Shown: positions 14,346-24,157, numbered from the stretch's first letter. The stretch is DNA of 36,286 bases from Candidatus Woesearchaeota archaeon (GCA_018303245.1 JAGVYM010000047.1:1-36286), one strand, 5' to 3'. The notes: generated by a model from the sequence alone, not told the origin. Program-made: numbers and translations.

Positions 14346-14367
14346 TGTTGCTTCAGAAAAATAAAAT

Positions 14368-14481
14368 GAGCCCGGCCAGGTTCGAACTGGCGACTTGCTC
14401 GACTTTGAAAGGCCGAAGGCGTTTCAAAGAAATGCCTTGGCTTTCGTCAACGAGCCGTCATAACCGCTAGACCACGGGCTC
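14368..14481 (-). tRNA. tRNA-Val (anticodon GAC) with an anticodon-loop intron of about 42 nt
   Basis: Minus strand: GAGCCCG-UG-GUCU-AGCGGUUAU-GAC-G-GCUCG-UUGACGA[42-nt intron, about 14402-14443]CGAGC-AAGUC-GCCAG-UUCGAAC-CUGGC-CGGGCUC. All four stems pair. The intron forms its own long hairpin. CCA is not encoded. Confidence 0.85.
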
Positions 14482-14506
14482 AATGTATATTGTTTATTCA
14501 CTTTTT

Positions 14507-14548
14507 GAGCCTGTGGTTCCGCCACGAGAGTGGCTAGACCACGGGCTC
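14507..14548. repeat. 42-nt hairpin that contains a 16-nt copy of the tRNA-Val 5' end
   Basis: GAGCCTGTGGT-TCC-GCCAC-GAGA-GTGGC-TAG-ACCACGGGCTC. GCTAGACCACGGGCTC (14533-14548) is identical to 14466-14481, which is tRNA-Val nt 1-16 on the minus strand. Confidence 0.7.
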
Positions 14549-15303: not shown

Positions 15304-15329
15304 AGCCTCTGACGGGAAGCAACACCCTC
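15304..15329 (-). repeat. displaced copy of the tRNA-Thr 3' end (att-like direct repeat, left island border)
   Basis: AGCCTCTGACGGGAA (15304-15318) is identical to 23346-23360, the acceptor 3' strand, T-stem and discriminator of tRNA-Thr. An imperfect extension (CACCC) corresponds to the T arm. Confidence 0.6.
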
Positions 15330-15405: not shown

Positions 15406-15451
15406 GTTGGGTTTAATACCCCGCAGCTTGCTGCGGTTTGCAGTATCCAAC
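15406..15451. repeat. structured repeat copy 1 (stem-loop element)
   Basis: GTTGG...TAATACCCCGCAGCTTGCTGCGG...CCAAC. The inner hairpin CCGCAG-CTTG-CTGCGG is enclosed by the 5-bp outer stem GTTGG/CCAAC. Confidence 0.5.
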
Positions 15452-15460
15452 TTTGAAATT

Positions 15461-15546
15461 AGAAAATACCGGTCGACCGCAGTAGAGAAAATGAGCGTAA
15501 TACCCCGTCAGCTTGCTGCGGGATAGCTCATTTTCAGGTATTTTCT
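15461..15546. repeat. structured repeat copy 2 inside nested inverted repeats
   Basis: Outer 10-bp stem AGAAAATACC (15461-15470)/GGTATTTTCT (15537-15546). Palindrome CGGTCGACCG (15470-15479). Second 10-bp stem GAAAATGAGC (15487-15496)/GCTCATTTTC (15526-15535), which encloses TAATACCCCGTCAGCTTGCTGCGG. Confidence 0.55.
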
Positions 15547-15788: not shown

Positions 15789-16703
15789 ATGCCTGCGCTT
15801 GCACAAGAACATCTGAAGAAAGAATCTGCTCAGACTGCAGAGCTTATAGAGATTAAGGAATTCAAGGCAAAAAATGGAAGTATCTTCTTAGGTGACTGTC
15901 TTAAGACAATGCAACAACTGCCAGAAAACAGTATCACTTTGGCATTCACATCACCACCTTATCTTAACGCAATAAACTATGAAGAGCATGTTGAAAAACT
16001 TCAAGGAAAGAAAGAACGATGGGAGCGTAAAGAAGTATCATATTCTGAGTATCGCGACTTTTTAGTCTACCGCTTCAAAGAACTCCTTCGTATCACCAAG
16101 CCAGGAGGATATAACGTAGTTAACATTGCGCCAGTCGGCTGGAACGGTACGCGCGTCGCTTTACCATTCCATTTTGTTAGCTGGATGGAGTCCATAGGCT
16201 GGAAGTTCTGCGAAGATATTATTTGGGAAAAACCAGTTGCAAAAGACAGAAGATCCGGAGTCTTACTACAGCACCCCTATCCTGGTTATTATTATCCGAG
16301 TCTTGTTTCTGAATACGTCTTTGTCTTCCAGAAACCCGCAGAAAAAGAAAAAACAGAAAACATTTACTGGCACAGGTCAAAAGAAGAAAAGGAAAGAAAT
16401 CGCATTGACTTGAAAGACTACCAAGGCGAGATGAGTAAAAACGTTTGGAAAATACGTCAAGTAGCACCACAAGAAACCATTCATCCTTGCGCGTTTCCTG
16501 TTGAACTTGCTTCAAGAATAATCAAATTTTACTCATACAAAGATGATGTAGTAGTAGACATCTTTGCCGGAAGTGGACAAACATTGTTAGCCGCTGAAAT
16601 GCAAGGTAGAAAGTTCATAGGAATGGACACGCAAAAAGAATATGTTGATTATGCTCTTGAAAAGATCAAGAAGGTGGAAGGGCAAAAGAAGCTCACTGAT
16701 TAA
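15789..16703 (+). CDS. DNA methyltransferase, beta-class (N4-cytosine or N6-adenine), type II R-M
   Basis: Motif IV FTSPPY near the N-terminus and motif I VVDIFAGSGQT near the C-terminus (beta permutation). SPPY favours m4C. Confidence 0.9.
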   Translation: MPALAQEHLKKESAQTAELIEIKEFKAKNGSIFLGDCLKTMQQLPENSITLAFTSPPYLNAINYEEHVEKLQGKKERWERKEVSYSEYRDFLVYRFKELLRITKPGGYNVVNIAPVGWNGTRVALPFHFVSWMESIGWKFCEDIIWEKPVAKDRRSGVLLQHPYPGYYYPSLVSEYVFVFQKPAEKEKTENIYWHRSKEEKERNRIDLKDYQGEMSKNVWKIRQVAPQETIHPCAFPVELASRIIKFYSYKDDVVVDIFAGSGQTLLAAEMQGRKFIGMDTQKEYVDYALEKIKKVEGQKKLTD

Positions 16704-16704
16704 T

Positions 16705-17829
16705 ATGAATGTTCTTGCAAGAATTGAAAACGTAGTATATGAATCTTTACTTTGTCGCGATCTCCCAATTGTTTCTTTGAAAGAGTTTGAAAATGGCAAA
16801 GCATTTGTCAATTCCTCTTTTGTAATTGATATTAAAGAAGGAAAAATTGCTGTAAGTCACTGGGTTTCTGCAAAAAGAACACGAAGTTACCCTTTCGCTC
16901 GTGTTTATGACACCATGAATTACAAAACCAGAGTCACAATCATACCTCTTGTAAAAGATGAAGGCAAAGATGGTGATCGAGATTATTTACAATGGGATAC
17001 TGTTTCACTCATGAGTCTTCTTGGTGTACACGTAATCATTGCGTACTACAAAAAAGCCAAAAAATCAGAAGAATACAAAAATAAGATAACAGACCAGGAA
17101 TTTGATTACAAATACCTCAAAGAGAAACTCCAAGAATTACTGAAATACAAATCTGGCGCGTTACACTGGAATCTGAAACAATTATCAGAAATCAACAAAA
17201 TCTCAAAGAAATGCGAAAATGCGTATTACAAACAAATAAGCAAAAAATGTGGTGTAGAGCTTCATGGCATCGATAGTTTCAAAGAACGCATTAGGCAAAT
17301 CACGGAAGACGTGGAAAAATTCAAGGAGTTTTCAAGAGAACTTGCAAAATCGGCACAGCACAGAGAATCGCTTACAACCCAACCAAAAGAACGAGTCGTA
17401 AATGAAAAAGGCACAATAACTATAACTAATTACTTGGGCGGGGCATACTATTTCACTGTTGATGAACTTGTTATTGACAAGAAAAAACTATTTTTGATCG
17501 AAAAGAAGCATTCTCGCGATTCAATTCCGAGCCTTGCGGATGTTCAGGATGGACTAATTAAGATGATTCTGTACTCTAATCTTGCACAAGCAACAGTTGA
17601 TGGTATTGAATATCAAATCAAGCCAGTACTTGGACTTACTGCAGATCATTTCACAGGATTGTGCGGAAGCCTAACCGAATTGCAAGCTTGTGGAAAGCAG
17701 TTAAGCAAAAGTGATTTTGAGATGCTTTCTACATTATTCAAAGAGGCGGAGAAAAATGGATTTAAAGTATTTATTATGGATTCTTCCAAGAAAACACTCC
17801 AAGACAAGTTTTTAGATAAAATATCTTAA
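16705..17829 (+). CDS. putative cognate type II restriction endonuclease
   Basis: The ATG lies 1 nt after the MTase stop. Candidate PD-(D/E)xK core: VDELVIDKKKLFLIEKKHS. I recognise no other family. Confidence 0.5.
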   Translation: MNVLARIENVVYESLLCRDLPIVSLKEFENGKAFVNSSFVIDIKEGKIAVSHWVSAKRTRSYPFARVYDTMNYKTRVTIIPLVKDEGKDGDRDYLQWDTVSLMSLLGVHVIIAYYKKAKKSEEYKNKITDQEFDYKYLKEKLQELLKYKSGALHWNLKQLSEINKISKKCENAYYKQISKKCGVELHGIDSFKERIRQITEDVEKFKEFSRELAKSAQHRESLTTQPKERVVNEKGTITITNYLGGAYYFTVDELVIDKKKLFLIEKKHSRDSIPSLADVQDGLIKMILYSNLAQATVDGIEYQIKPVLGLTADHFTGLCGSLTELQACGKQLSKSDFEMLSTLFKEAEKNGFKVFIMDSSKKTLQDKFLDKIS

Positions 17830-19766: not shown

Positions 19767-20600
19767 TCACTTTACAATTCCCAGTCTTAGAAGTCGGGCA
19801 CGAATGGCACTTGGTTGTCTTCCCATTACTTGTGCTATTTCTTTTATTGGTTTATTTTCAAGGAACAACTCTTTTAATCTGTTCTCTAATTCGTCATCCC
19901 AAGGCTCATGAGCGCTAGGATGAGCCGTGTGTATTTTCTGAAGGCGTGTCAGGGTTTTCGGAGCATCTAAGTCTATGTTTCCGTTCTTTTTAATCTGATT
20001 AACCTGCACCCCATTAGGCACAGTAAGCCAACGAGTAATCAACGCTTCATATTCGGTGAGCCGACAACCTTGTCCCTCACTTGAAGGATTTTGAATCCCA
20101 AAATCTTGAGCAAGCCAATCAGTGAAAGTCAAAACATGAAGTTTTTCAGACGCATTATAAATATAAAACCAGACATTAATTCGAGAGTTTTTTAATTTCT
20201 CCTTATCAGGCACTGATATGGACTTAACTTTATCAATTATCTCGAACTTGGAATTTATCACAACCATTTGGGAATGTTTATACTTGTTTAAAAGTTTGAA
20301 ATCTTTTTCATTAAGGTCGCCATTCCACCTATATCTGACTTCTACCACTCTTCGCTTACCACTTTTATGAATAATAACAAAATCAGGCAAAGTTTTAAGG
20401 AAATCAGCATTATCACCCAAGTCTGTAAAACTGAAGTCATCTTTAAATGCTTTTGTGAAATATTCCATTTGGGTTGTTGGAATAGTCATATATTCCTTTC
20501 CTAAATGGCATACAAGAAAGCCCATATCCCTGAAAGCATGTTCAATTAAAACTTCTGCAATCTTCCCTTTCACCATACGTTCAGTAACATCAACAGTCAT
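19767..20600 (-). CDS. PD-(D/E)xK-like nuclease-fold protein with a C-terminal HTH domain
   Basis: N-terminus: KGKIAEVLIEHAFRDMGF ... LPDFVIIHKSGKRRVVEVRYR, i.e. an E / PD / ExK-like layout with R in place of K. C-terminus: WDDELENRLKELFLENKPIKEIAQVMGRQPSAIRARLLRLGI, a Myb/sigma-r4-like HTH. The start is set at the ATG at 20600, 26 nt downstream of a TATA box at 20622-20629 (minus strand). Confidence 0.65.
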   Translation of the reverse strand: MTVDVTERMVKGKIAEVLIEHAFRDMGFLVCHLGKEYMTIPTTQMEYFTKAFKDDFSFTDLGDNADFLKTLPDFVIIHKSGKRRVVEVRYRWNGDLNEKDFKLLNKYKHSQMVVINSKFEIIDKVKSISVPDKEKLKNSRINVWFYIYNASEKLHVLTFTDWLAQDFGIQNPSSEGQGCRLTEYEALITRWLTVPNGVQVNQIKKNGNIDLDAPKTLTRLQKIHTAHPSAHEPWDDELENRLKELFLENKPIKEIAQVMGRQPSAIRARLLRLGIVK

Positions 20601-20647
20601 AGTCCTCAATAAACCAAGCTCATATAAAAGTCTTGTTAAGAAAAGAA

Positions 20648-20748
20648 GTGTTTAGCTGCAAGAGGTGCCGAGCGACACATTTGTCGTCAATGACACCATT
20701 AAATTCATTATTGAATTGTGAAAATTTGTCTAGACGTGAGCTAAACAC
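20648..20748. promoter_or_regulatory. nested palindromic (cloverleaf-like) element of about 100 nt between divergent promoters
   Basis: Outer 10-bp stem GTGTTTAGCT (20648-20657)/AGCTAAACAC (20739-20748). Inner hairpins CGACA-CATT-TGTCG (20673-20686) and AATTCA-TTAT-TGAATT (20702-20717). Palindrome GTCTAGAC (20728-20735). Confidence 0.45.
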
Positions 20749-20803
20749 GTACATAAAGAACAAAACTTATTAAATAACATGTGAATATCTTATCATAATA
20801 CAG

Positions 20804-20811
20804 TTTATAAA
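20804..20811 (+). promoter_or_regulatory. TATA box for the RecQ-family helicase gene
   Basis: TTTATAAA lies about 85 nt upstream of the ATG at 20897. A GAGGA SD-like motif lies about 9 nt before the ATG. Confidence 0.4.
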
Positions 20812-20896
20812 GGAATTTATCAAGAGAAAGAAAAAAGAACCTATTGGCCAATCTCAAAAAAGAGGAGTTGAGATATTAACTATTTGAGGAAATTTA

Positions 20897-23023
20897 ATGG
20901 AAGACAAAACTGAATTGAACGATTTTGAAAGAAGAATAATCGAGCAAGTAGAACATGCAAATGCAAACGACATTGATTTTTCAGATTGTACTCCGCTGAA
21001 CGTTGCTCGGACGGTATTCGGATTTAATGGTTTCAAGGAAAATGGACAAGAAAAAATAATCGAGTTCGTTCTACATAAAAAAGGAGACGTTTTAGGAATT
21101 ATACCAACAGGCGGCGGGAAATCTGCTTGTTTTCAAATACCTGCATTAATTCAGAAAAACATGACTGTGGTAATTAGTCCATTAATCGCTTTGATGAAAG
21201 ATCAAGTGGAAAGTTTAGTTAGGAAGGGAATTCATTCCTCCTTTTTTATTAATTCTTCAATAAATGAAGAGGTTAAAGAAAAGATAATTTCTTTAATTAT
21301 GCAAAATAAAGTAAAATTACTATATATTGCTCCGGAATCTTTACAATCAGAAAGAATTCAAAATATTTTATCAAAAGTTAAAATAGATTTAGTGGTTGTT
21401 GATGAAGCACACTGCATATCGACTTGGGGACATAACTTTAGACCTGATTATCTAAAATTAGCAGAGATAATAGAAACACTCGGTTCTCCGCCAGTATTAG
21501 CATTGACTGCGACAGCCACAAAAAAAGTCATTATTGATATTAATATACAATTAAAGAGGGAGTTTAAGACGTTTAAGGCAAGTTTTGATAGGCCTTTATT
21601 GTACATGGTTGTTCAGGATGTTCCCGATAATATTGATAAAGAAATCTTTTTCCTAAACTTAATTAAAAAACTAACTGGACCAACAATAGTATTTGCCCGA
21701 ACAAGAGAATTAACTGAAAACCTTTCAATTCTATTAAACCAGAATAACATAAGAAGTATTTTCTATCATGCGGGACTAAATTCTGAAGAAAGGCAAAAAC
21801 GACAAAACTCATTCATGGATGGCGAATGCAATATTATCATTGCAACAATTGCGTTTGGCATGGGTATTGATAAGAAAGACATAAGAAACATCATCCATTA
21901 CAATATGCCTCAATCTGTTGAAGGATATTATCAAGAAATAGGGAGAGCGGGGAGAGATGGAGATAAGTCAAATTGTATTTTACTTTTTACCGAAGGAGAT
22001 ATTCATAGAATGAAAGCGTTAATTTCTACAGATTGGCCTAACAAAGAGAAAATCGAGGACTTAATTAACCATTTAAAAAACAAAACAACTAATTTAATAT
22101 TTGCTAATGCGAAAGGATTAGAATATGAAACGGACATAAAGGAAATTCCCGTACGTTTGATTTTACACAGATTAGAAGAAGCAGAAGCAATAAAGAAATA
22201 TTCCAGTGTGCTTCATAATTTTAAAGTAAAATTTAATAAAAAGCATCTTGAAATTATTGCTTTATCAGATAAAAGGTATGTTGATGATATTAAGAAAATA
22301 TTATCTTCTGAATATTTTAAAAGCGTAAGATCAATTATTAATCTTGAGATGTTAGTTGATGAAACAAAAATGAATTACTTTAAAGTTCTAGAAATTTTTA
22401 GGTATTTGGCTGGTCAGAATTACATAGATATAACAAAAGAACAACATAAAGATTTAATTTTTATTAAAAAAGAACTAAATTCATTTGATATTGCGCCTCT
22501 TGTAACTCTTTTTCAAGATATATTAAATAAAAACTACCAAAAAATTGATGATCTTGTCATATGTCTAACATCTCAAAATTGTATTCGTAGAAGTGTTTTA
22601 GAATATTTTGATGAACCAAACTTAAAAACGAAATGTGACATGTGTTCTAATTGTGTTGCATTAGAAATGTTAAATACTATACCTATGAAGATAAATGAGA
22701 ATTATGCCACGGATGAAGAGATAACTGCATTATCAAGTCTTAAAATAGATATAAATAGTGACGAATTTCATATTATCTTACTAAAATCAGTGGGAATTGA
22801 TAAGTGCATCCCTAAAAAAGATTTCGCTAAAGTACTAAATGGTACTTTACACAGATTATCTGCAAAGTGGAAATTTGAATTATGCTCTTATAATATATTA
22901 AAAGAAGAAGAATCGAAGATTGGAGATACTGTAAACAAATTAGTATCTGATGAATTAATGGAAATTACTCCTGATGGTGAATTAAGAATTACAAAAAAGG
23001 GAATAACTACCCTTTTAAAATGA
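20897..23023 (+). CDS. recQ: RecQ-family ATP-dependent DNA helicase with a large insertion and an extended C-terminus
   Basis: PTGGGKSACFQIPAL, VISPLIALMKDQV, VVDEAHCISTWGHNFRPDY, LTATAT, and YQEIGRAGRDG. The RecQ zinc motif (NCIRRSVLEYFDE...CDMCSNC) appears only about 210 aa after motif VI. The gene is very AT-rich. Confidence 0.9.
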   Translation: MEDKTELNDFERRIIEQVEHANANDIDFSDCTPLNVARTVFGFNGFKENGQEKIIEFVLHKKGDVLGIIPTGGGKSACFQIPALIQKNMTVVISPLIALMKDQVESLVRKGIHSSFFINSSINEEVKEKIISLIMQNKVKLLYIAPESLQSERIQNILSKVKIDLVVVDEAHCISTWGHNFRPDYLKLAEIIETLGSPPVLALTATATKKVIIDINIQLKREFKTFKASFDRPLLYMVVQDVPDNIDKEIFFLNLIKKLTGPTIVFARTRELTENLSILLNQNNIRSIFYHAGLNSEERQKRQNSFMDGECNIIIATIAFGMGIDKKDIRNIIHYNMPQSVEGYYQEIGRAGRDGDKSNCILLFTEGDIHRMKALISTDWPNKEKIEDLINHLKNKTTNLIFANAKGLEYETDIKEIPVRLILHRLEEAEAIKKYSSVLHNFKVKFNKKHLEIIALSDKRYVDDIKKILSSEYFKSVRSIINLEMLVDETKMNYFKVLEIFRYLAGQNYIDITKEQHKDLIFIKKELNSFDIAPLVTLFQDILNKNYQKIDDLVICLTSQNCIRRSVLEYFDEPNLKTKCDMCSNCVALEMLNTIPMKINENYATDEEITALSSLKIDINSDEFHIILLKSVGIDKCIPKKDFAKVLNGTLHRLSAKWKFELCSYNILKEEESKIGDTVNKLVSDELMEITPDGELRITKKGITTLLK

Positions 23024-23346
23024 AAGTCATTATTAATAATTCACAAACTCGTAGCATTTATAAATAAAAAATCCGAATTCTTAACAGCCGACACTTAACA
23101 TCCACAGGTTGAACAATACGTTAAGAAAAGAGGTATTTGCTGAACACTACATTTCGTGAACATTCGCTATTAAGAAAACCACACTATGTTTTTAACAAAG
23201 CTCTTGCGGTCACAAGTGGACGACACAAGCCGACAAGCTCCCTAAAGTATGTTCAAACCTCAAATGTAAAAGCCCATACTGGGACTCCAAGAGAAAAGAA
23301 AGGAAAATCTAAAAGAATCCCTAAGTTTGTTACGTTTGGTTATACA

Positions 23347-23441
23347 GCCTCTGACGGGAATTGCACCCGCGACCTCCACCTTTTTGTTGACGTTTTGTTC
23401 TTGATACCAAGGTGGCGCAATGGCTACTATGCTACAGAGGC
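23347..23441 (-). tRNA. tRNA-Thr (anticodon GGU) with a 23-nt intron; atypical D and T loops
   Basis: Minus strand: GCCUCUG-UA-GCAU-AGUAGCCA-UUGC-G-CCACC-UUGGUA[intron 23382-23404]A-GGUGG-AGGUC-GCGGG-UGCAAUU-CCCGU-CAGAGGC, discriminator U. TATA-like TTTTTAAAGG (23468-23477) lies about 30 nt upstream. The T loop has G at position 55 and the D loop lacks GG. Confidence 0.65.
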
Positions 23442-23540
23442 AATGGTGTTGTGTGGTTTGGTCGTGGTTTTTAAAGGTTTGTTTGGGGAGCGTGAATGAA
23501 AGCCGAAAAATATAAATATGTGTATACATATGTAGACTCC

Positions 23541-23777
23541 ATGGGAACAAAAACAATTGCGATCATGGATGATGTGTATGCTCTTTTGAAAGCGCTTAAA
23601 GCGCCTCATGAAAGCTTTTCAGATGCATTAAGAAGGCTTGCGAAAACAAAAGGAGATATTGTGGCTCTTGCGGGAAGCTGGGGAGATATTTCAGATAAAG
23701 ACGCGGAAAAGATAAAAAGCGCACTTATCCGTATGCGCAAAGGAACTCGCATTGACGAGTTGCGGAAACGTTTATGA
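23541..23777 (+). CDS. vapB: VapB-type antitoxin (archaeal putative-antitoxin family)
   Basis: MGTKTIAIMDDVYALLKALKAPHESFSDALRRL is the typical N-terminus of this antitoxin family. ATGA overlap with vapC. Confidence 0.8.
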   Translation: MGTKTIAIMDDVYALLKALKAPHESFSDALRRLAKTKGDIVALAGSWGDISDKDAEKIKSALIRMRKGTRIDELRKRL

Positions 23778-24157
23778 TCCTTGACACAACAATATTGATT
23801 GATTTCTTACGCGGAGAGGAACGCGCAATTCGTTTTGTTGCAGATCATTCCCCTCTATGGACAACTGAAGTGAACGTCTTTGAATTGTTTGTAGGCGCTT
23901 ACCTTGGAGGAGTTGTGCAGAAGAAAAAAGATAACGCTGGTGCATTGATTGAGCGATTGATTGTTCTGCCTCTTGATCGCAAAGCATCAATAAAGGCTGC
24001 CGAACTTGCAAGTGAGCTGATTAAAAAAGGTCTTACAGTTGAGACTGCAGATAATTTGATTGCGGGAATTGCATTGACAAATGGAATAACAGAAATAGTG
24101 ACTGCAAACAAATCACATTTTGAGCGATTCGATGAGTTGAAAGTCATTTCTTATTGA
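23774..24157 (+). CDS. vapC: VapC PIN-domain ribonuclease toxin
   Basis: MILDTTILIDFLRG (first acidic residue), FEL, ADNLIAGIAL, and TANKSHF: the PIN domain layout. Confidence 0.9.
   Translation: MILDTTILIDFLRGEERAIRFVADHSPLWTTEVNVFELFVGAYLGGVVQKKKDNAGALIERLIVLPLDRKASIKAAELASELIKKGLTVETADNLIAGIALTNGITEIVTANKSHFERFDELKVISY

What the first reader, a model, noticed from the sequence alone, without database searches (positions are those of the whole stretch)
19767..23023. Divergent pair of a PD-(D/E)xK-like nuclease-HTH protein and an atypical RecQ helicase: candidate defence or mobile-element module
Inside the island, two genes share a 296-bp divergent promoter region.

- A 277-aa protein has an N-terminal restriction-endonuclease-like layout (E in KIAEVLIEHAF, PD in LPDFVII, VEVR in place of ExK). 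It also has a central region with no motif I recognise and a C-terminal Myb/sigma-r4-like HTH (KEIAQVMGRQPSAIRARLLRLG).
- A 708-aa RecQ-family helicase has its Zn-binding motif (CIRRSVLEYFDE...CDMCSNC) about 210 aa after motif VI. From memory, the gap in E. coli RecQ is about 50 aa. That implies an insertion of roughly 150 aa (about nt 21975-22575), plus an unassigned C-terminal tail of about 120 aa.

Helicase-plus-nuclease pairs are a recurrent architecture of anti-phage systems (Hachiman- and Nhi-like logic). I do not recognise this particular combination or its divergent arrangement. The location next to an R-M system and VapBC, inside an AT-rich island, fits a defence island.
Basis: inference. 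Interest (0 to 1): 0.7.

Follow-up and report, generated by a model that had tools for sequence, protein, structure and literature searches.

The report
Mosaic island: RecQ helicase beside nuclease-like gene
A DNA-unwinding (RecQ) gene and a neighbouring nuclease-like gene in an uncultured tiny archaeon are real and correctly read, but they were put side by side recently inside a patchwork mobile island and do not form a conserved defence system.

Summary
Both genes exist as described, 296 bp apart and divergent.

**The 277-aa protein.** It is a PD-(D/E)xK-type nuclease-like domain from an uncharacterised family of about 78 clusters. The family motif is E…PD…E-V-K; here the lysine is arginine. 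A Myb-like HTH is attached at the C-terminus.

**The RecQ.** It carries a ~160-aa insertion, probably two winged helices, before the zinc motif, and an RQC-like tail. That spacing (~226 aa) recurs in most of the best 120 homologues, bacterial ones included, so it is a subfamily trait.

**The island.** The pair lies in an 8-kb low-GC segment bounded by an exact 15-nt repeat of a tRNA 3' end. The type II R-M is inside it; VapBC is outside.

**Against a conserved module:**
- 0 of 69 loci with the nuclease family hold a RecQ.
- Only 1 of 7 other RecQ loci has a family member next to it.
- A 94%-identical RecQ cassette sits beside UvrD elsewhere, and its homology stops 43 bp upstream of the RecQ start.
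- PADLOC does not recognise the 277-aa protein.

**For a biological link:**
- The same HTH ends at least 14 RecQ clusters of the clade.
- One relative is a Cas4-like nuclease–RecQ fusion.
- One locus reads RadB–RecQ–nuclease–topoisomerase IA.

Most likely this is a repair-type helicase with a possibly cooperating nuclease or regulator. Modest interest.

The parts
15304..15318 (+). Distal att-like copy: exact 15-nt duplicate of the tRNA 3' end (AGCCTCTGACGGGAA). It marks the left edge of the island.
   Evidence: Found as repeat D10. It occurs only twice in the window, with 0.04 copies expected. It lies where GC drops.
15789..17829 (+). Type II restriction-modification pair inside the island: N4/N6 methyltransferase at 15789-16703 and restriction enzyme at 16642-17829, with overlapping ends.
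   Evidence: Pfam N6_N4_Mtase E 7.5e-41. PADLOC MTase_II E 7e-57 and REase_II E 6e-81.
20001..20600 (-). Nuclease-like domain of the 277-aa protein (aa 1-200). It has a PD-(D/E)xK-type fold and belongs to an uncharacterised family. Motif residues are E16, E36, P72-D73 and E87-V88-R89, with arginine where the family has lysine.
   Evidence: Exhaustive phmmer search found 78 clusters. Alignment A1 gives the motif. AF2 with the alignment gives pLDDT 82.9, pTM 0.81. Weak fold and Pfam hits are mostly to PD-(D/E)xK nucleases.
19770..19949 (-). C-terminal Myb/homeodomain-like HTH module (aa 218-277) of the 277-aa protein. The same module ends many RecQ proteins of this clade.
   Evidence: AF2 is confident for aa 232-277. 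Profile A5 matches PDB 2lvs at E 2.4e-7 and c-Myb at 6e-4. The module ends 14 full-length RecQ clusters, plus the RecQ fragment P0006, P0002 and P0148. It is 87% nt-identical to the RQC+HTH gene in L011.
20601..20896 (.). 296-bp divergent intergenic region. Only its last 43 bp (20854-20896) belong to the transferred RecQ cassette.
   Evidence: Sequence. The blastn breakpoint is at 20854.
20996..22051 (+). RecQ helicase core (aa 34-385) with intact motifs I (PTGGGKS), II (DEAH), the aromatic loop and VI (GRAGRDG).
   Evidence: Pfam DEAD and Helicase_C. TIGR00614 recQ_fam scores 374 bits against a cutoff of 220. PDB RecQ, RECQL5 and BLM hits reach E ~1e-73. Motif positions.
22052..22531 (+). ~160-aa insertion (aa ~386-545) between the helicase core and the zinc motif, probably two winged-helix domains. 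It is a subfamily-wide feature.
   Evidence: The gap appears in the alignment to D. radiodurans RecQ. Spacing is 224-231 aa in most of the top 120 homologues. Weak wHTH hits fall at two positions of profile A3.
22532..22666 (+). RecQ zinc-binding motif (C562, C580, C583, C586).
   Evidence: Pfam RecQ_Zn_bind at aa 544-586, E 2.4e-7. All four cysteines are invariant in A3. Profile matches RecQ structures at E 9e-8.
22667..23023 (+). C-terminal ~120-aa tail, likely a divergent RQC-like winged helix. The range includes the stop codon.
   Evidence: The Pfam RQC hit exceeds its cutoff in the 66%-identical homologue P0014 at the equivalent position. Precomputed RQC hits also exist for P0003 and P0016, marked weak at their loci. 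The tail's own profile finds nothing in the PDB.
20854..23120 (+). RecQ cassette, 93.9% nt-identical to a contig where RecQ follows UvrD. It has sharp homology breakpoints on both sides.
   Evidence: blastn of window against L088. RecQ GC of 0.299 matches that contig (0.287), not the window outside the island (0.436).
23346..23441 (-). Intron-containing tRNA gene, probably Thr-GGU with a 23-nt intron. Its 3' end faces the island and carries the proximal att-like repeat at 23346-23360.
   Evidence: Rfam tRNA at 50.3 bits. ARAGORN with introns allowed. Repeat D10. The Thr-GGU assignment is my reading of the anticodon loop; ARAGORN itself called Phe.

Best explanation
**Setting (shown).** The region is part of an 8-kb mosaic genomic island. 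The island is integrated at the 3' end of an intron-containing tRNA gene in a Candidatus Woesearchaeota (DPANN) genome.

**The helicase.**
- Shown: the 708-aa gene is an intact member of a large RecQ subfamily. Its architecture is helicase core, ~160-aa probable tandem winged-helix insertion, zinc motif, RQC-like tail.
- Inferred: in related archaea this looks like the cell's genome-maintenance RecQ. It sits next to RadB and topoisomerase IA, next to UvrD, or among ribosomal-protein genes.
- Shown: this copy shares a ~2.27-kb, 94%-identical, low-GC cassette with another genomic context.
- Inferred: the cassette entered the island by horizontal transfer.

**The 277-aa gene (shown to be a mosaic).** It joins a PD-(D/E)xK-type nuclease-like domain of an uncharacterised family to a Myb-like HTH module. 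The catalytic lysine is replaced by arginine. In many relatives the same HTH module is the C-terminus of RecQ.

**The pair.** The two genes are a recent, lineage-specific juxtaposition, not a conserved two-gene defence system.

**Mechanism (inferred).** If they cooperate, the shared HTH directs the nuclease-like protein to the same DNA or partner that the long RecQ forms reach on their own. RecQ unwinds 3'-5'. The PD-(D/E)xK protein cuts or binds the resulting flap, branch or end. This would resemble RecQ-RecJ, Sgs1-Dna2, WRN or archaeal Hjm-Hjc in recombination-intermediate and stalled-fork processing. With R in place of K, the protein may instead act mainly as a DNA-binding regulator of the divergent promoter.
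For: **Island**
- tRNA at 23346-23441(-).
- Exact 15-nt repeat of its 3' end at 15304-15318. A second copy of a given 15-mer is expected about 7e-5 times in 36 kb (my calculation).
- GC is 0.358 inside and 0.436 outside.

**RecQ identity**
- recQ_fam model passes its cutoff.
- PDB RecQ hits at E 1e-73.
- Motifs intact.

**Insertion is a subfamily trait**
- Spacing is ~226 aa in most of the top 120 hits.
- M. smegmatis RqlH is a precedent, with a 90-aa spacer (PMC3378886).

**Repair or housekeeping contexts of orthologues**
- RadB | RecQ | nuclease-family gene | topoisomerase IA.
- UvrD | RecQ at 94% identity.
- Ribosomal-protein neighbourhood.
- Some clade members carry canonical RQC plus HRDC.

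**Recent juxtaposition**
- Homology to L088 runs only from 20854 to 23120.
- RecQ GC is 0.299 against 0.369 for the 277-aa gene.
- The HTH-coding 181 nt are 87% identical to a different gene, RQC+HTH in L011.

**No conserved pairing**
- 0 of 69 nuclease-family loci have a RecQ (positive control). Of these loci, 38 have at least 3 kb on one side.

**Functional link**
- The HTH lies on 14 RecQ clusters, on an RQC-only protein and on two nuclease-family proteins.
- P0050 is a Cas4-like nuclease-RecQ fusion.

**Nuclease fold**
-.
Against: - No biochemical or expression data exist.
- Fold-search hits are all weaker than E 1e-3. The nuclease fold is therefore inferred from motif, topology and enrichment of weak hits.
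- No integrase was found in the island, and no empty site was recovered. Integration is inferred from the repeat and composition only.
- The housekeeping role of orthologues is inferred from neighbours in only about seven loci. Three of those are next to R-M, Cas1 or an integrase.
- The island also carries an R-M system, and nuclease-plus-helicase is a common defence logic, so a defence role is not excluded.
- Whether this genome has another RecQ is unknown.
Confidence: 0.55

Rival explanations
1. The pair is a dedicated two-gene anti-virus or anti-plasmid defence system carried on a defence island. RecQ translocates on or unwinds invading DNA, and the PD-(D/E)xK protein degrades it.
For: - The pair sits in a tRNA-integrated, low-GC island together with a type II R-M system.
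- The fold is nuclease-like.
- Some RecQ orthologues lie beside type III R-M or Cas1.
- The bacterial branch of the nuclease family neighbours type I R-M methylases in 6 loci.
- A RecQ-like helicase system, PsyrTA/RqlHI, is a known defence system.
Against: - PADLOC gives no hit for the 277-aa protein. The RecQ hits reflect mainly the generic helicase core. The NCBIfam DpdF score is 219 against a cutoff of 550.
- The pairing is not conserved: 0 of 69 and 1 of 7 loci.
- The two genes have separate origins.
- The catalytic lysine is replaced by arginine.
- Orthologues occur in housekeeping contexts.
- The family was not found in viral contigs.
Confidence: 0.12
2. There is no functional coupling. 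The genes are accidental neighbours in a patchwork island. The 277-aa protein is a stand-alone HTH regulator or a decaying selfish nuclease, and RecQ acts alone.
For: - The RecQ cassette boundary at 20854 excludes the neighbour and most of the intergenic region.
- GC contents differ.
- The K-to-R change in the active site suggests loss of catalysis.
- The nuclease family is found in unrelated contexts.
Against: - The same HTH module is fused to RecQ in at least 14 clusters and to an RQC-only protein.
- A second, independent adjacency of a family member to a 74%-identical RecQ exists in L015.
- Nuclease-RecQ fusions exist in the clade.
- The 277-aa sequence was retrieved unchanged from 16 contigs in several samples.
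Confidence: 0.28
3. The island is an integrated plasmid or virus remnant, and RecQ plus the nuclease-like protein serve its own replication or recombination.
For: - tRNA-end direct repeats and low GC.
- Contigs break at the left junction.
- PHROG 323 'transcriptional regulator, D5-like' hits the HTH region at E 2e-7.
Against: - No integrase, replication initiator, capsid or other viral or plasmid hallmark was found.
- The family is absent from IMG/VR.
- The RecQ cassette has a chromosomal-looking counterpart beside UvrD.
Confidence: 0.05

Closest known systems
RecQ-family DNA helicases (TIGR00614 recQ_fam; E. coli RecQ, D. radiodurans RecQ, human RECQL5/BLM)
   Same: - The helicase core has all motifs, including the aromatic loop.
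- It has the four-cysteine zinc motif and an RQC-like tail.
- It passes the recQ_fam cutoff.
   Different: - It fails the RecQ equivalog cutoff, 435 against 640 bits.
- It has ~160 extra residues between the core and the zinc motif.
- It has no HRDC domain.
- In sister proteins the C-terminus is a Myb-like HTH.
Mycobacterium smegmatis RqlH clade of RecQ-like helicases (PMC3378886)
   Same: It is a RecQ-like ATPase separated from the tetracysteine zinc domain by a lineage-specific spacer, and it lacks HRDC.
   Different: - The RqlH spacer is 90 aa, against ~160 aa here.
- RqlH has a ComF/PRTase C-domain. No such domain was found here.
PsyrTA / RqlHI toxin-antitoxin-like defence system (PMC4670107; bioRxiv 10.1101/2022.05.11.491447)
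   Same: It is a two-gene unit with a RecQ-like helicase and a partner that carries an HTH. The PADLOC PsyrT model hits the helicase core and the first part of the insertion.
   Different: - There is no PRTase domain on the helicase.
- The partner is PD-(D/E)xK-like, not DprA-like.
- The genes are divergent, not an operon.
- No PADLOC hit was found for the partner.
PD-(D/E)xK nuclease superfamily (archaeal Hjc resolvase, VRR-NUC, TnsA N-domain, Cas4)
   Same: - The E...PD...E-x-K motif pattern is present.
- The core is alpha-beta-beta-beta-alpha-beta.
- The weak best matches are mostly to these families.
   Different: - No hit reaches significance.
- The family has no Pfam, NCBIfam or PDB representative.
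- The window protein has R at the K position.
Helicase-nuclease partnerships in recombination: RecQ-RecJ, Sgs1/BLM-Dna2, WRN, Hjm-Hjc, and RecQ-Topo III (from established knowledge; RecQ-Topo III also cited in PMC8185306)
   Same: - A RecQ helicase is genomically linked to a nuclease. In L015 it is also linked to RadB and topoisomerase IA.
- A fused Cas4-like nuclease-RecQ exists in P0050.
   Different: - The nuclease family is different.
- The association is sporadic.
- No physical or functional interaction is demonstrated.

Membership tests
RecQ family helicase (TIGR00614) | SF2 helicase core with RecQ-type motifs, scoring above the family cutoff | tested here: met
   TIGR00614 scores 374.1 bits against a cutoff of 219.8. 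Motifs I, II and VI and the aromatic loop are present.
RecQ family helicase (TIGR00614) | Four-cysteine RecQ zinc-binding motif | tested here: met
   Pfam RecQ_Zn_bind E 2.4e-7. The cysteines are invariant in 19 homologues.
Canonical bacterial RecQ (TIGR01389 equivalog) | Full-length match above the equivalog cutoff, with the zinc domain abutting the core and RQC plus HRDC present | tested here: not met
   435 bits against a cutoff of 640. There is a ~160-aa insertion. No HRDC hit was found.
PsyrTA / RqlHI | C-terminal PRTase/ComF-like domain on the helicase | tested here: not met
   No PRTase or ComF Pfam hit was found. The PADLOC PsyrT match covers only aa 37-459.
PsyrTA / RqlHI | DprA-like antitoxin encoded in an operon with the helicase | tested here: not met
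   The neighbour has no PADLOC or Pfam DprA hit and is divergently transcribed.
Dpd system (DpdF helicase) | DpdF equivalog score and neighbouring dpd genes | tested here: not met
   NF041063 scores 218.7 bits against a cutoff of 550. The island genes tested hit no Dpd model, and their top Pfam and PADLOC matches are to other families.
PD-(D/E)xK nuclease superfamily | Conserved acidic and lysine catalytic motif (E/D ... D ... E-x-K) | tested here: inconclusive
   The family has an invariant E36, P72 and E87, with D73 and K89 at least 90% conserved. The window protein has R89 in place of K.
PD-(D/E)xK nuclease superfamily | Restriction-endonuclease-like alpha-beta-beta-beta-alpha-beta fold | tested here: inconclusive
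   The AF2 model (pLDDT 82.9) has the expected order of elements. The best Foldseek hits are mostly PD-(D/E)xK nucleases, but all have E above 1e-3.
PD-(D/E)xK nuclease superfamily | Metal-dependent nuclease activity | not testable with these tools
   This needs an enzyme assay.
Conserved two-gene defence module (generic criterion) | The two genes recur as neighbours across lineages | tested here: not met
   0 of 69 nuclease-family loci hold a RecQ. 1 of 7 other RecQ loci holds a family member. For one of those seven, the P0013 locus, no DNA was held, so its neighbours were judged from the gene table alone.
tRNA-integrated genomic island | Direct repeat of the tRNA 3' end bounding a compositionally distinct segment | tested here: met
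   Exact 15-nt repeat. GC is 0.358 against 0.436.
tRNA-integrated genomic island | Integrase gene, or an observed empty site in a relative | tested here: not met
   The island ORFs searched gave no integrase hit. All contigs with the flanking SDR gene that extend far enough carry the island.

The most novel reading that the evidence does not exclude
The short-form RecQ and the nuclease-HTH protein are a split version of the fused forms seen in relatives (RecQ-HTH; Cas4-like nuclease-RecQ). Together they form an undescribed, island-borne helicase-nuclease system of DPANN archaea. The Myb-like HTH is the shared targeting module, and the system acts on invading or branched DNA.
Probability: 0.12. 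Interest if true: 0.6.

Novelty: new member of a known kind. Interest (0 to 1): 0.3.

Why it matters
- **Negative result.** This attractive 'helicase + nuclease in an island' pair is not a conserved defence module. That saves follow-up effort.
- **Uncharacterised nuclease family.** The work defines a PD-(D/E)xK-like family of about 78 clusters at 50% identity. It occurs in DPANN archaea, CPR bacteria and Bacteroidota, and has no Pfam or PDB entry.
- **RecQ subfamily.** A widespread RecQ subfamily carries a ~160-aa, probably double winged-helix, insertion before the zinc motif.
- **Mobile HTH module.** A Myb-like HTH module moves between RecQ, an RQC-only protein and the nuclease family. This is a lead on how DPANN archaea organise recombination-intermediate processing.
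- **Gene flow.** The region is a clear case of recent gene-cassette and domain exchange among co-occurring Woesearchaeota.

Tried and rejected
- **Word-indexed homologue search with the 277-aa protein.** It found only the protein itself plus one HTH-sharing protein. The exhaustive phmmer search with aa 1-200 was needed to find the family.
- **Single-sequence AF2.** It failed for aa 1-232, with pLDDT around 33. It was replaced by an alignment-based model.
- **Profile of the nuclease family against PDB sequences.** No hit.
- **Foldseek against PDB and BFVD.** No hit at E below 1e-3. The results were used only as an enrichment argument.
- **The search for related loci with the 43-sequence alignment.** A narrower 11-sequence alignment worked, but its patterns favour typical family members. 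They would miss window-like variants, so the 0 of 69 result is biased toward the main branch.
- **Viral contigs.** No family member found.
- **Profile of the RecQ tail against the PDB.** No hit. The RQC assignment rests on Pfam hits in homologues.
- **Extra ~170-aa domain of P0033, between the tail and the HTH.** It looked nuclease-like by eye but could not be assigned. That idea is dropped.
- **Search for an empty integration site via the flanking SDR protein.** None found.
- **19-nt repeat flanking RecQ (20635 and 23120).** By my estimate about 0.3 such pairs are expected in 10 kb, so it is not significant alone. It is kept only because one copy coincides with the cassette breakpoint.
- **PsyrTA and Dpd membership.** Considered and rejected.

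Full report

Yes. The ORF list gives 19767-20609(-) and 20897-23023(+). The first is 280 aa from TTG. From the ATG at 20600 it is 277 aa and identical to database protein P0001, which NCBI names 'sigma-70 region 4 domain-containing protein [Candidatus Woesearchaeota archaeon]'. The second is 708 aa. The spacer from 20601 to 20896 is 296 bp. All quoted motifs are present.

D. radiodurans RecQ aligns to residues 34-384 and then to 547-587 with only five of its own residues in between. A ~160-aa insertion before the zinc motif (C562, C580, C583, C586) is therefore real, and a ~120-aa tail follows. GC drops to 0.27-0.34 over the pair.

**2. The 277-aa protein**

Pfam, NCBIfam and PADLOC recognise nothing in aa 1-200. 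An exhaustive phmmer search with aa 1-200 found 78 clusters at E <= 1e-3, mostly stand-alone proteins of ~200 aa.

- **Motif.** In a 43-sequence alignment, E36, P72 and E87 are invariant. D73 and K89 are at least 90% conserved. This is an E...PD...E-V-K pattern. The window protein has arginine at the lysine position.
- **Fold.** With this alignment AlphaFold2 gives pLDDT 82.9 and pTM 0.81, with an alpha-beta-beta-beta-alpha-beta core. No Foldseek hit reaches E 1e-3. Many of the best weak hits are PD-(D/E)xK nucleases: the SPARDA nuclease, Hjc resolvases, VRR-NUC, I-Ssp6803I, Cas4-like proteins, bunyaviral endonuclease and phage resolvases. Unrelated folds such as JAMM/Rpn11 proteins appear among them. 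The weak Pfam hits of family members point the same way, to TnsA_N, VRR_NUC, DUF790, PDDEXK_14 and NERD, with BRCT and other unrelated families also listed.
- **Verdict on the fold.** I take the nuclease-like fold as likely. Catalytic competence of this member is open.
- **HTH.** The C-terminal 60 residues are a Myb/homeodomain-like HTH. The profile matches PDB 2lvs at E 2.4e-7 and c-Myb at 6e-4.

**3. The RecQ**

It passes the RecQ-family model (374 bits against a cutoff of 220). It fails the canonical RecQ equivalog (435 against 640).

- **Clade.** About 55 clusters share 44-94% identity over the full length. Those that carry a source name are mostly Woesearchaeota or Nanoarchaeota.
- **Insertion.** The distance from motif VI to CxxCxxC is 224-231 aa in most of the best 120 hits, including ~640-aa bacterial proteins. 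The insertion is therefore a subfamily trait. A profile of it gives weak winged-helix hits at two separate positions, so two winged helices are likely.
- **Precedent.** A spacer between the ATPase and the zinc domain is described for M. smegmatis RqlH, at 90 aa (PMC3378886).
- **Tail.** The tail is probably RQC-like. Pfam RQC exceeds its cutoff at the equivalent place in the 66%-identical P0014. The tail's own profile finds nothing in the PDB.
- **Variants in the clade.** Members vary at the ends: a C-terminal HTH, HEAT repeats, canonical RQC plus HRDC, an N-terminal dual-OB domain, and an N-terminal Cas4-like nuclease.

**4. Are the two genes a module?**

*Nuclease-family loci.*
- I examined 69 loci: 6 species-representative genomes and 63 metagenome contigs.
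- 38 of them have at least 3 kb on one side.
- None contains a RecQ or the HTH. The positive control worked.
- The search patterns favour typical family members, so window-like variants may be under-sampled.

*Other RecQ loci (seven examined).* Only L015 holds a nuclease-family gene.

| RecQ homologue | Locus | Neighbours |
|---|---|---|
| P0010 | L015 | RadB \| RecQ \| Zn-ribbon nuclease-family member \| topoisomerase IA; hmmsearch E 8e-17 |
| P0007 (94% identical) | L088 | UvrD |
| P0045 | L018 | ribosomal proteins L44e, S27e and eIF2-alpha |
| P0009 | L013 | type III R-M |
| P0013 | no DNA held | Cas1 |
| P0016 | L017 | deoxyhypusine synthase and an integrase |
| P0008 | L089 | HNH and radical-SAM genes |

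*Separate origins.* blastn shows that the window shares 93.9% nucleotide identity with the UvrD-RecQ contig only from 20854 to 23120, with sharp breakpoints. RecQ GC (0.299) matches that contig (0.287). The 277-aa gene has GC 0.369, and the genome outside the island has 0.436. The RecQ therefore most likely arrived as its own cassette, and the 'shared promoter' is mostly not part of it.

*Mosaic structure of the 277-aa gene.* Its last 181 nt are 87% identical to the end of a different gene, an RQC-plus-HTH protein in L011, from a sample that also holds the window population.

**5. Evidence for a looser biological link**

- The same HTH is the C-terminus of at least 14 RecQ clusters of the clade. 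It also ends an RQC-only protein and another nuclease-family protein, P0148.
- P0050 fuses a Cas4-like nuclease to RecQ.
- L015 places a family member between RecQ and topoisomerase IA, next to RadB.

These are domain-fusion and neighbourhood hints that RecQ, a PD-(D/E)xK nuclease and the HTH act in one pathway. By analogy with RecQ-Topo III, RecQ-RecJ, Sgs1-Dna2 and Hjm-Hjc (established knowledge; RecQ-Topo III is also cited in PMC8185306), that pathway would be recombination-intermediate or fork processing.

**6. The island**

Rfam finds a tRNA at 23346-23441(-). ARAGORN finds it only when introns are allowed. I read it as Thr-GGU with a canonical 23-nt intron.

The tRNA's 3'-terminal 15 nt recur exactly at 15304-15318, where GC drops. 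The 8.06-kb segment between the two copies holds the type II R-M pair, small ORFs, a 317-aa unknown protein, the 277-aa gene and RecQ.

VapBC (23496-24157) and the DNA ligase lie outside. No integrase and no empty site were found, so integration is inferred.

**7. Known systems**

- **PsyrTA/RqlHI.** It requires a PRTase domain on the helicase and a DprA-like partner. Neither is present.
- **DpdF.** The score is far below its cutoff.
- **PADLOC.** It has no model for the 277-aa protein.

**8. Verdict**

The most probable reading (about 0.55) is a mosaic tRNA-integrated island. It holds a recently acquired, repair-type RecQ of a widespread insertion-bearing subfamily, next to a mosaic nuclease-like/HTH gene. 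The HTH module hints at possible cooperation. A dedicated defence system is unlikely (about 0.12).

Novelty is limited to a new member of known kinds, with two by-products: an uncharacterised PD-(D/E)xK-like family and a RecQ-associated HTH module. Interest is 0.3.

Noticed in passing
window 15304-15318 and 23346-23441: An intron-containing tRNA was missed by default ARAGORN but found by Rfam and by ARAGORN with introns allowed. Its 3'-terminal 15 nt are duplicated 8 kb away. This defines an island that contains the R-M system, the 277-aa gene and RecQ, but no integrase.
   Followed up: yes
window 14366-14482 and 14533-14548: A second intron-containing tRNA (Val-GAC, 42-nt intron) lies on the minus strand. 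A 16-nt piece of its 5' end (GCTAGACCACGGGCTC) is repeated exactly 67 bp further on. This may be another integration scar.
   Followed up: no
window 20854-23120 vs L088 2665-4932: The RecQ gene with 43 bp upstream and 97 bp downstream is 93.9% nt-identical to a contig where RecQ follows UvrD. That contig comes from the same aquifer sample as one of the window-population contigs. This suggests recent cassette transfer between co-resident Woesearchaeota.
   Followed up: yes
window 20635-20653 and 23120-23138: A 19-nt imperfect direct repeat (GTTAAGAAAAGARGTRTTT) brackets the RecQ gene. The right copy starts exactly at the cassette's homology breakpoint. It could be an insertion footprint or chance.
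   Followed up: partly
window 19769-19949 vs L011 633-813: The HTH-coding end of the 277-aa gene is 87% nt-identical to the end of a gene for a Zn-ribbon + RQC + HTH protein (P0002), including a 41-aa identical stretch. This indicates recent domain shuffling.
   Followed up: yes
L015 3134-8779: The cluster reads RadB-like | RecQ (74% identical) | Zn-ribbon nuclease-family gene | topoisomerase IA. It looks like a recombination-intermediate processing locus in a related archaeon.
   Followed up: partly
L090 8001-12014: A 951-aa protein fuses an N-terminal Cas4-like PD-(D/E)xK domain, with cysteines placed as in Cas4 iron-sulphur clusters (my reading of the sequence), to the same type of RecQ. 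A PLD-family (PLDc_2) gene follows it.
   Followed up: partly
L024, L052, L056, L058, L060, L078: In a bacterial-looking branch of the nuclease family, the gene sits next to a type I-like N6 methyltransferase. In L024 it is also next to HsdS and an integrase. This suggests a restriction-related role there.
   Followed up: partly
protein P0004 (1.1-kb JGI contig): A 272-aa protein joins an aminopeptidase-N-like N-terminus (PF17900) to the last ~145 residues of this RecQ at 97% identity. It is probably an assembly chimera, or possibly a real fusion.
   Followed up: no
window 15419-15436 and 15504-15521: Two copies of a GC-rich palindromic 18-mer (CCCCGCAGCTTGCTGCGG) lie 85 bp apart. They sit just inside the left island junction, between the att-like repeat and the methyltransferase gene.
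   Followed up: no
L001/L093 vs L002/L095 (other contigs of the window population): Strain variants differ just outside the island. The spacer between the methyltransferase and the SDR gene is 373 bp in one and 525 bp in the other. The pyrimidine-nucleoside phosphorylase gene is replaced in one variant by two unknown genes. Several contigs end at the left junction.
   Followed up: no
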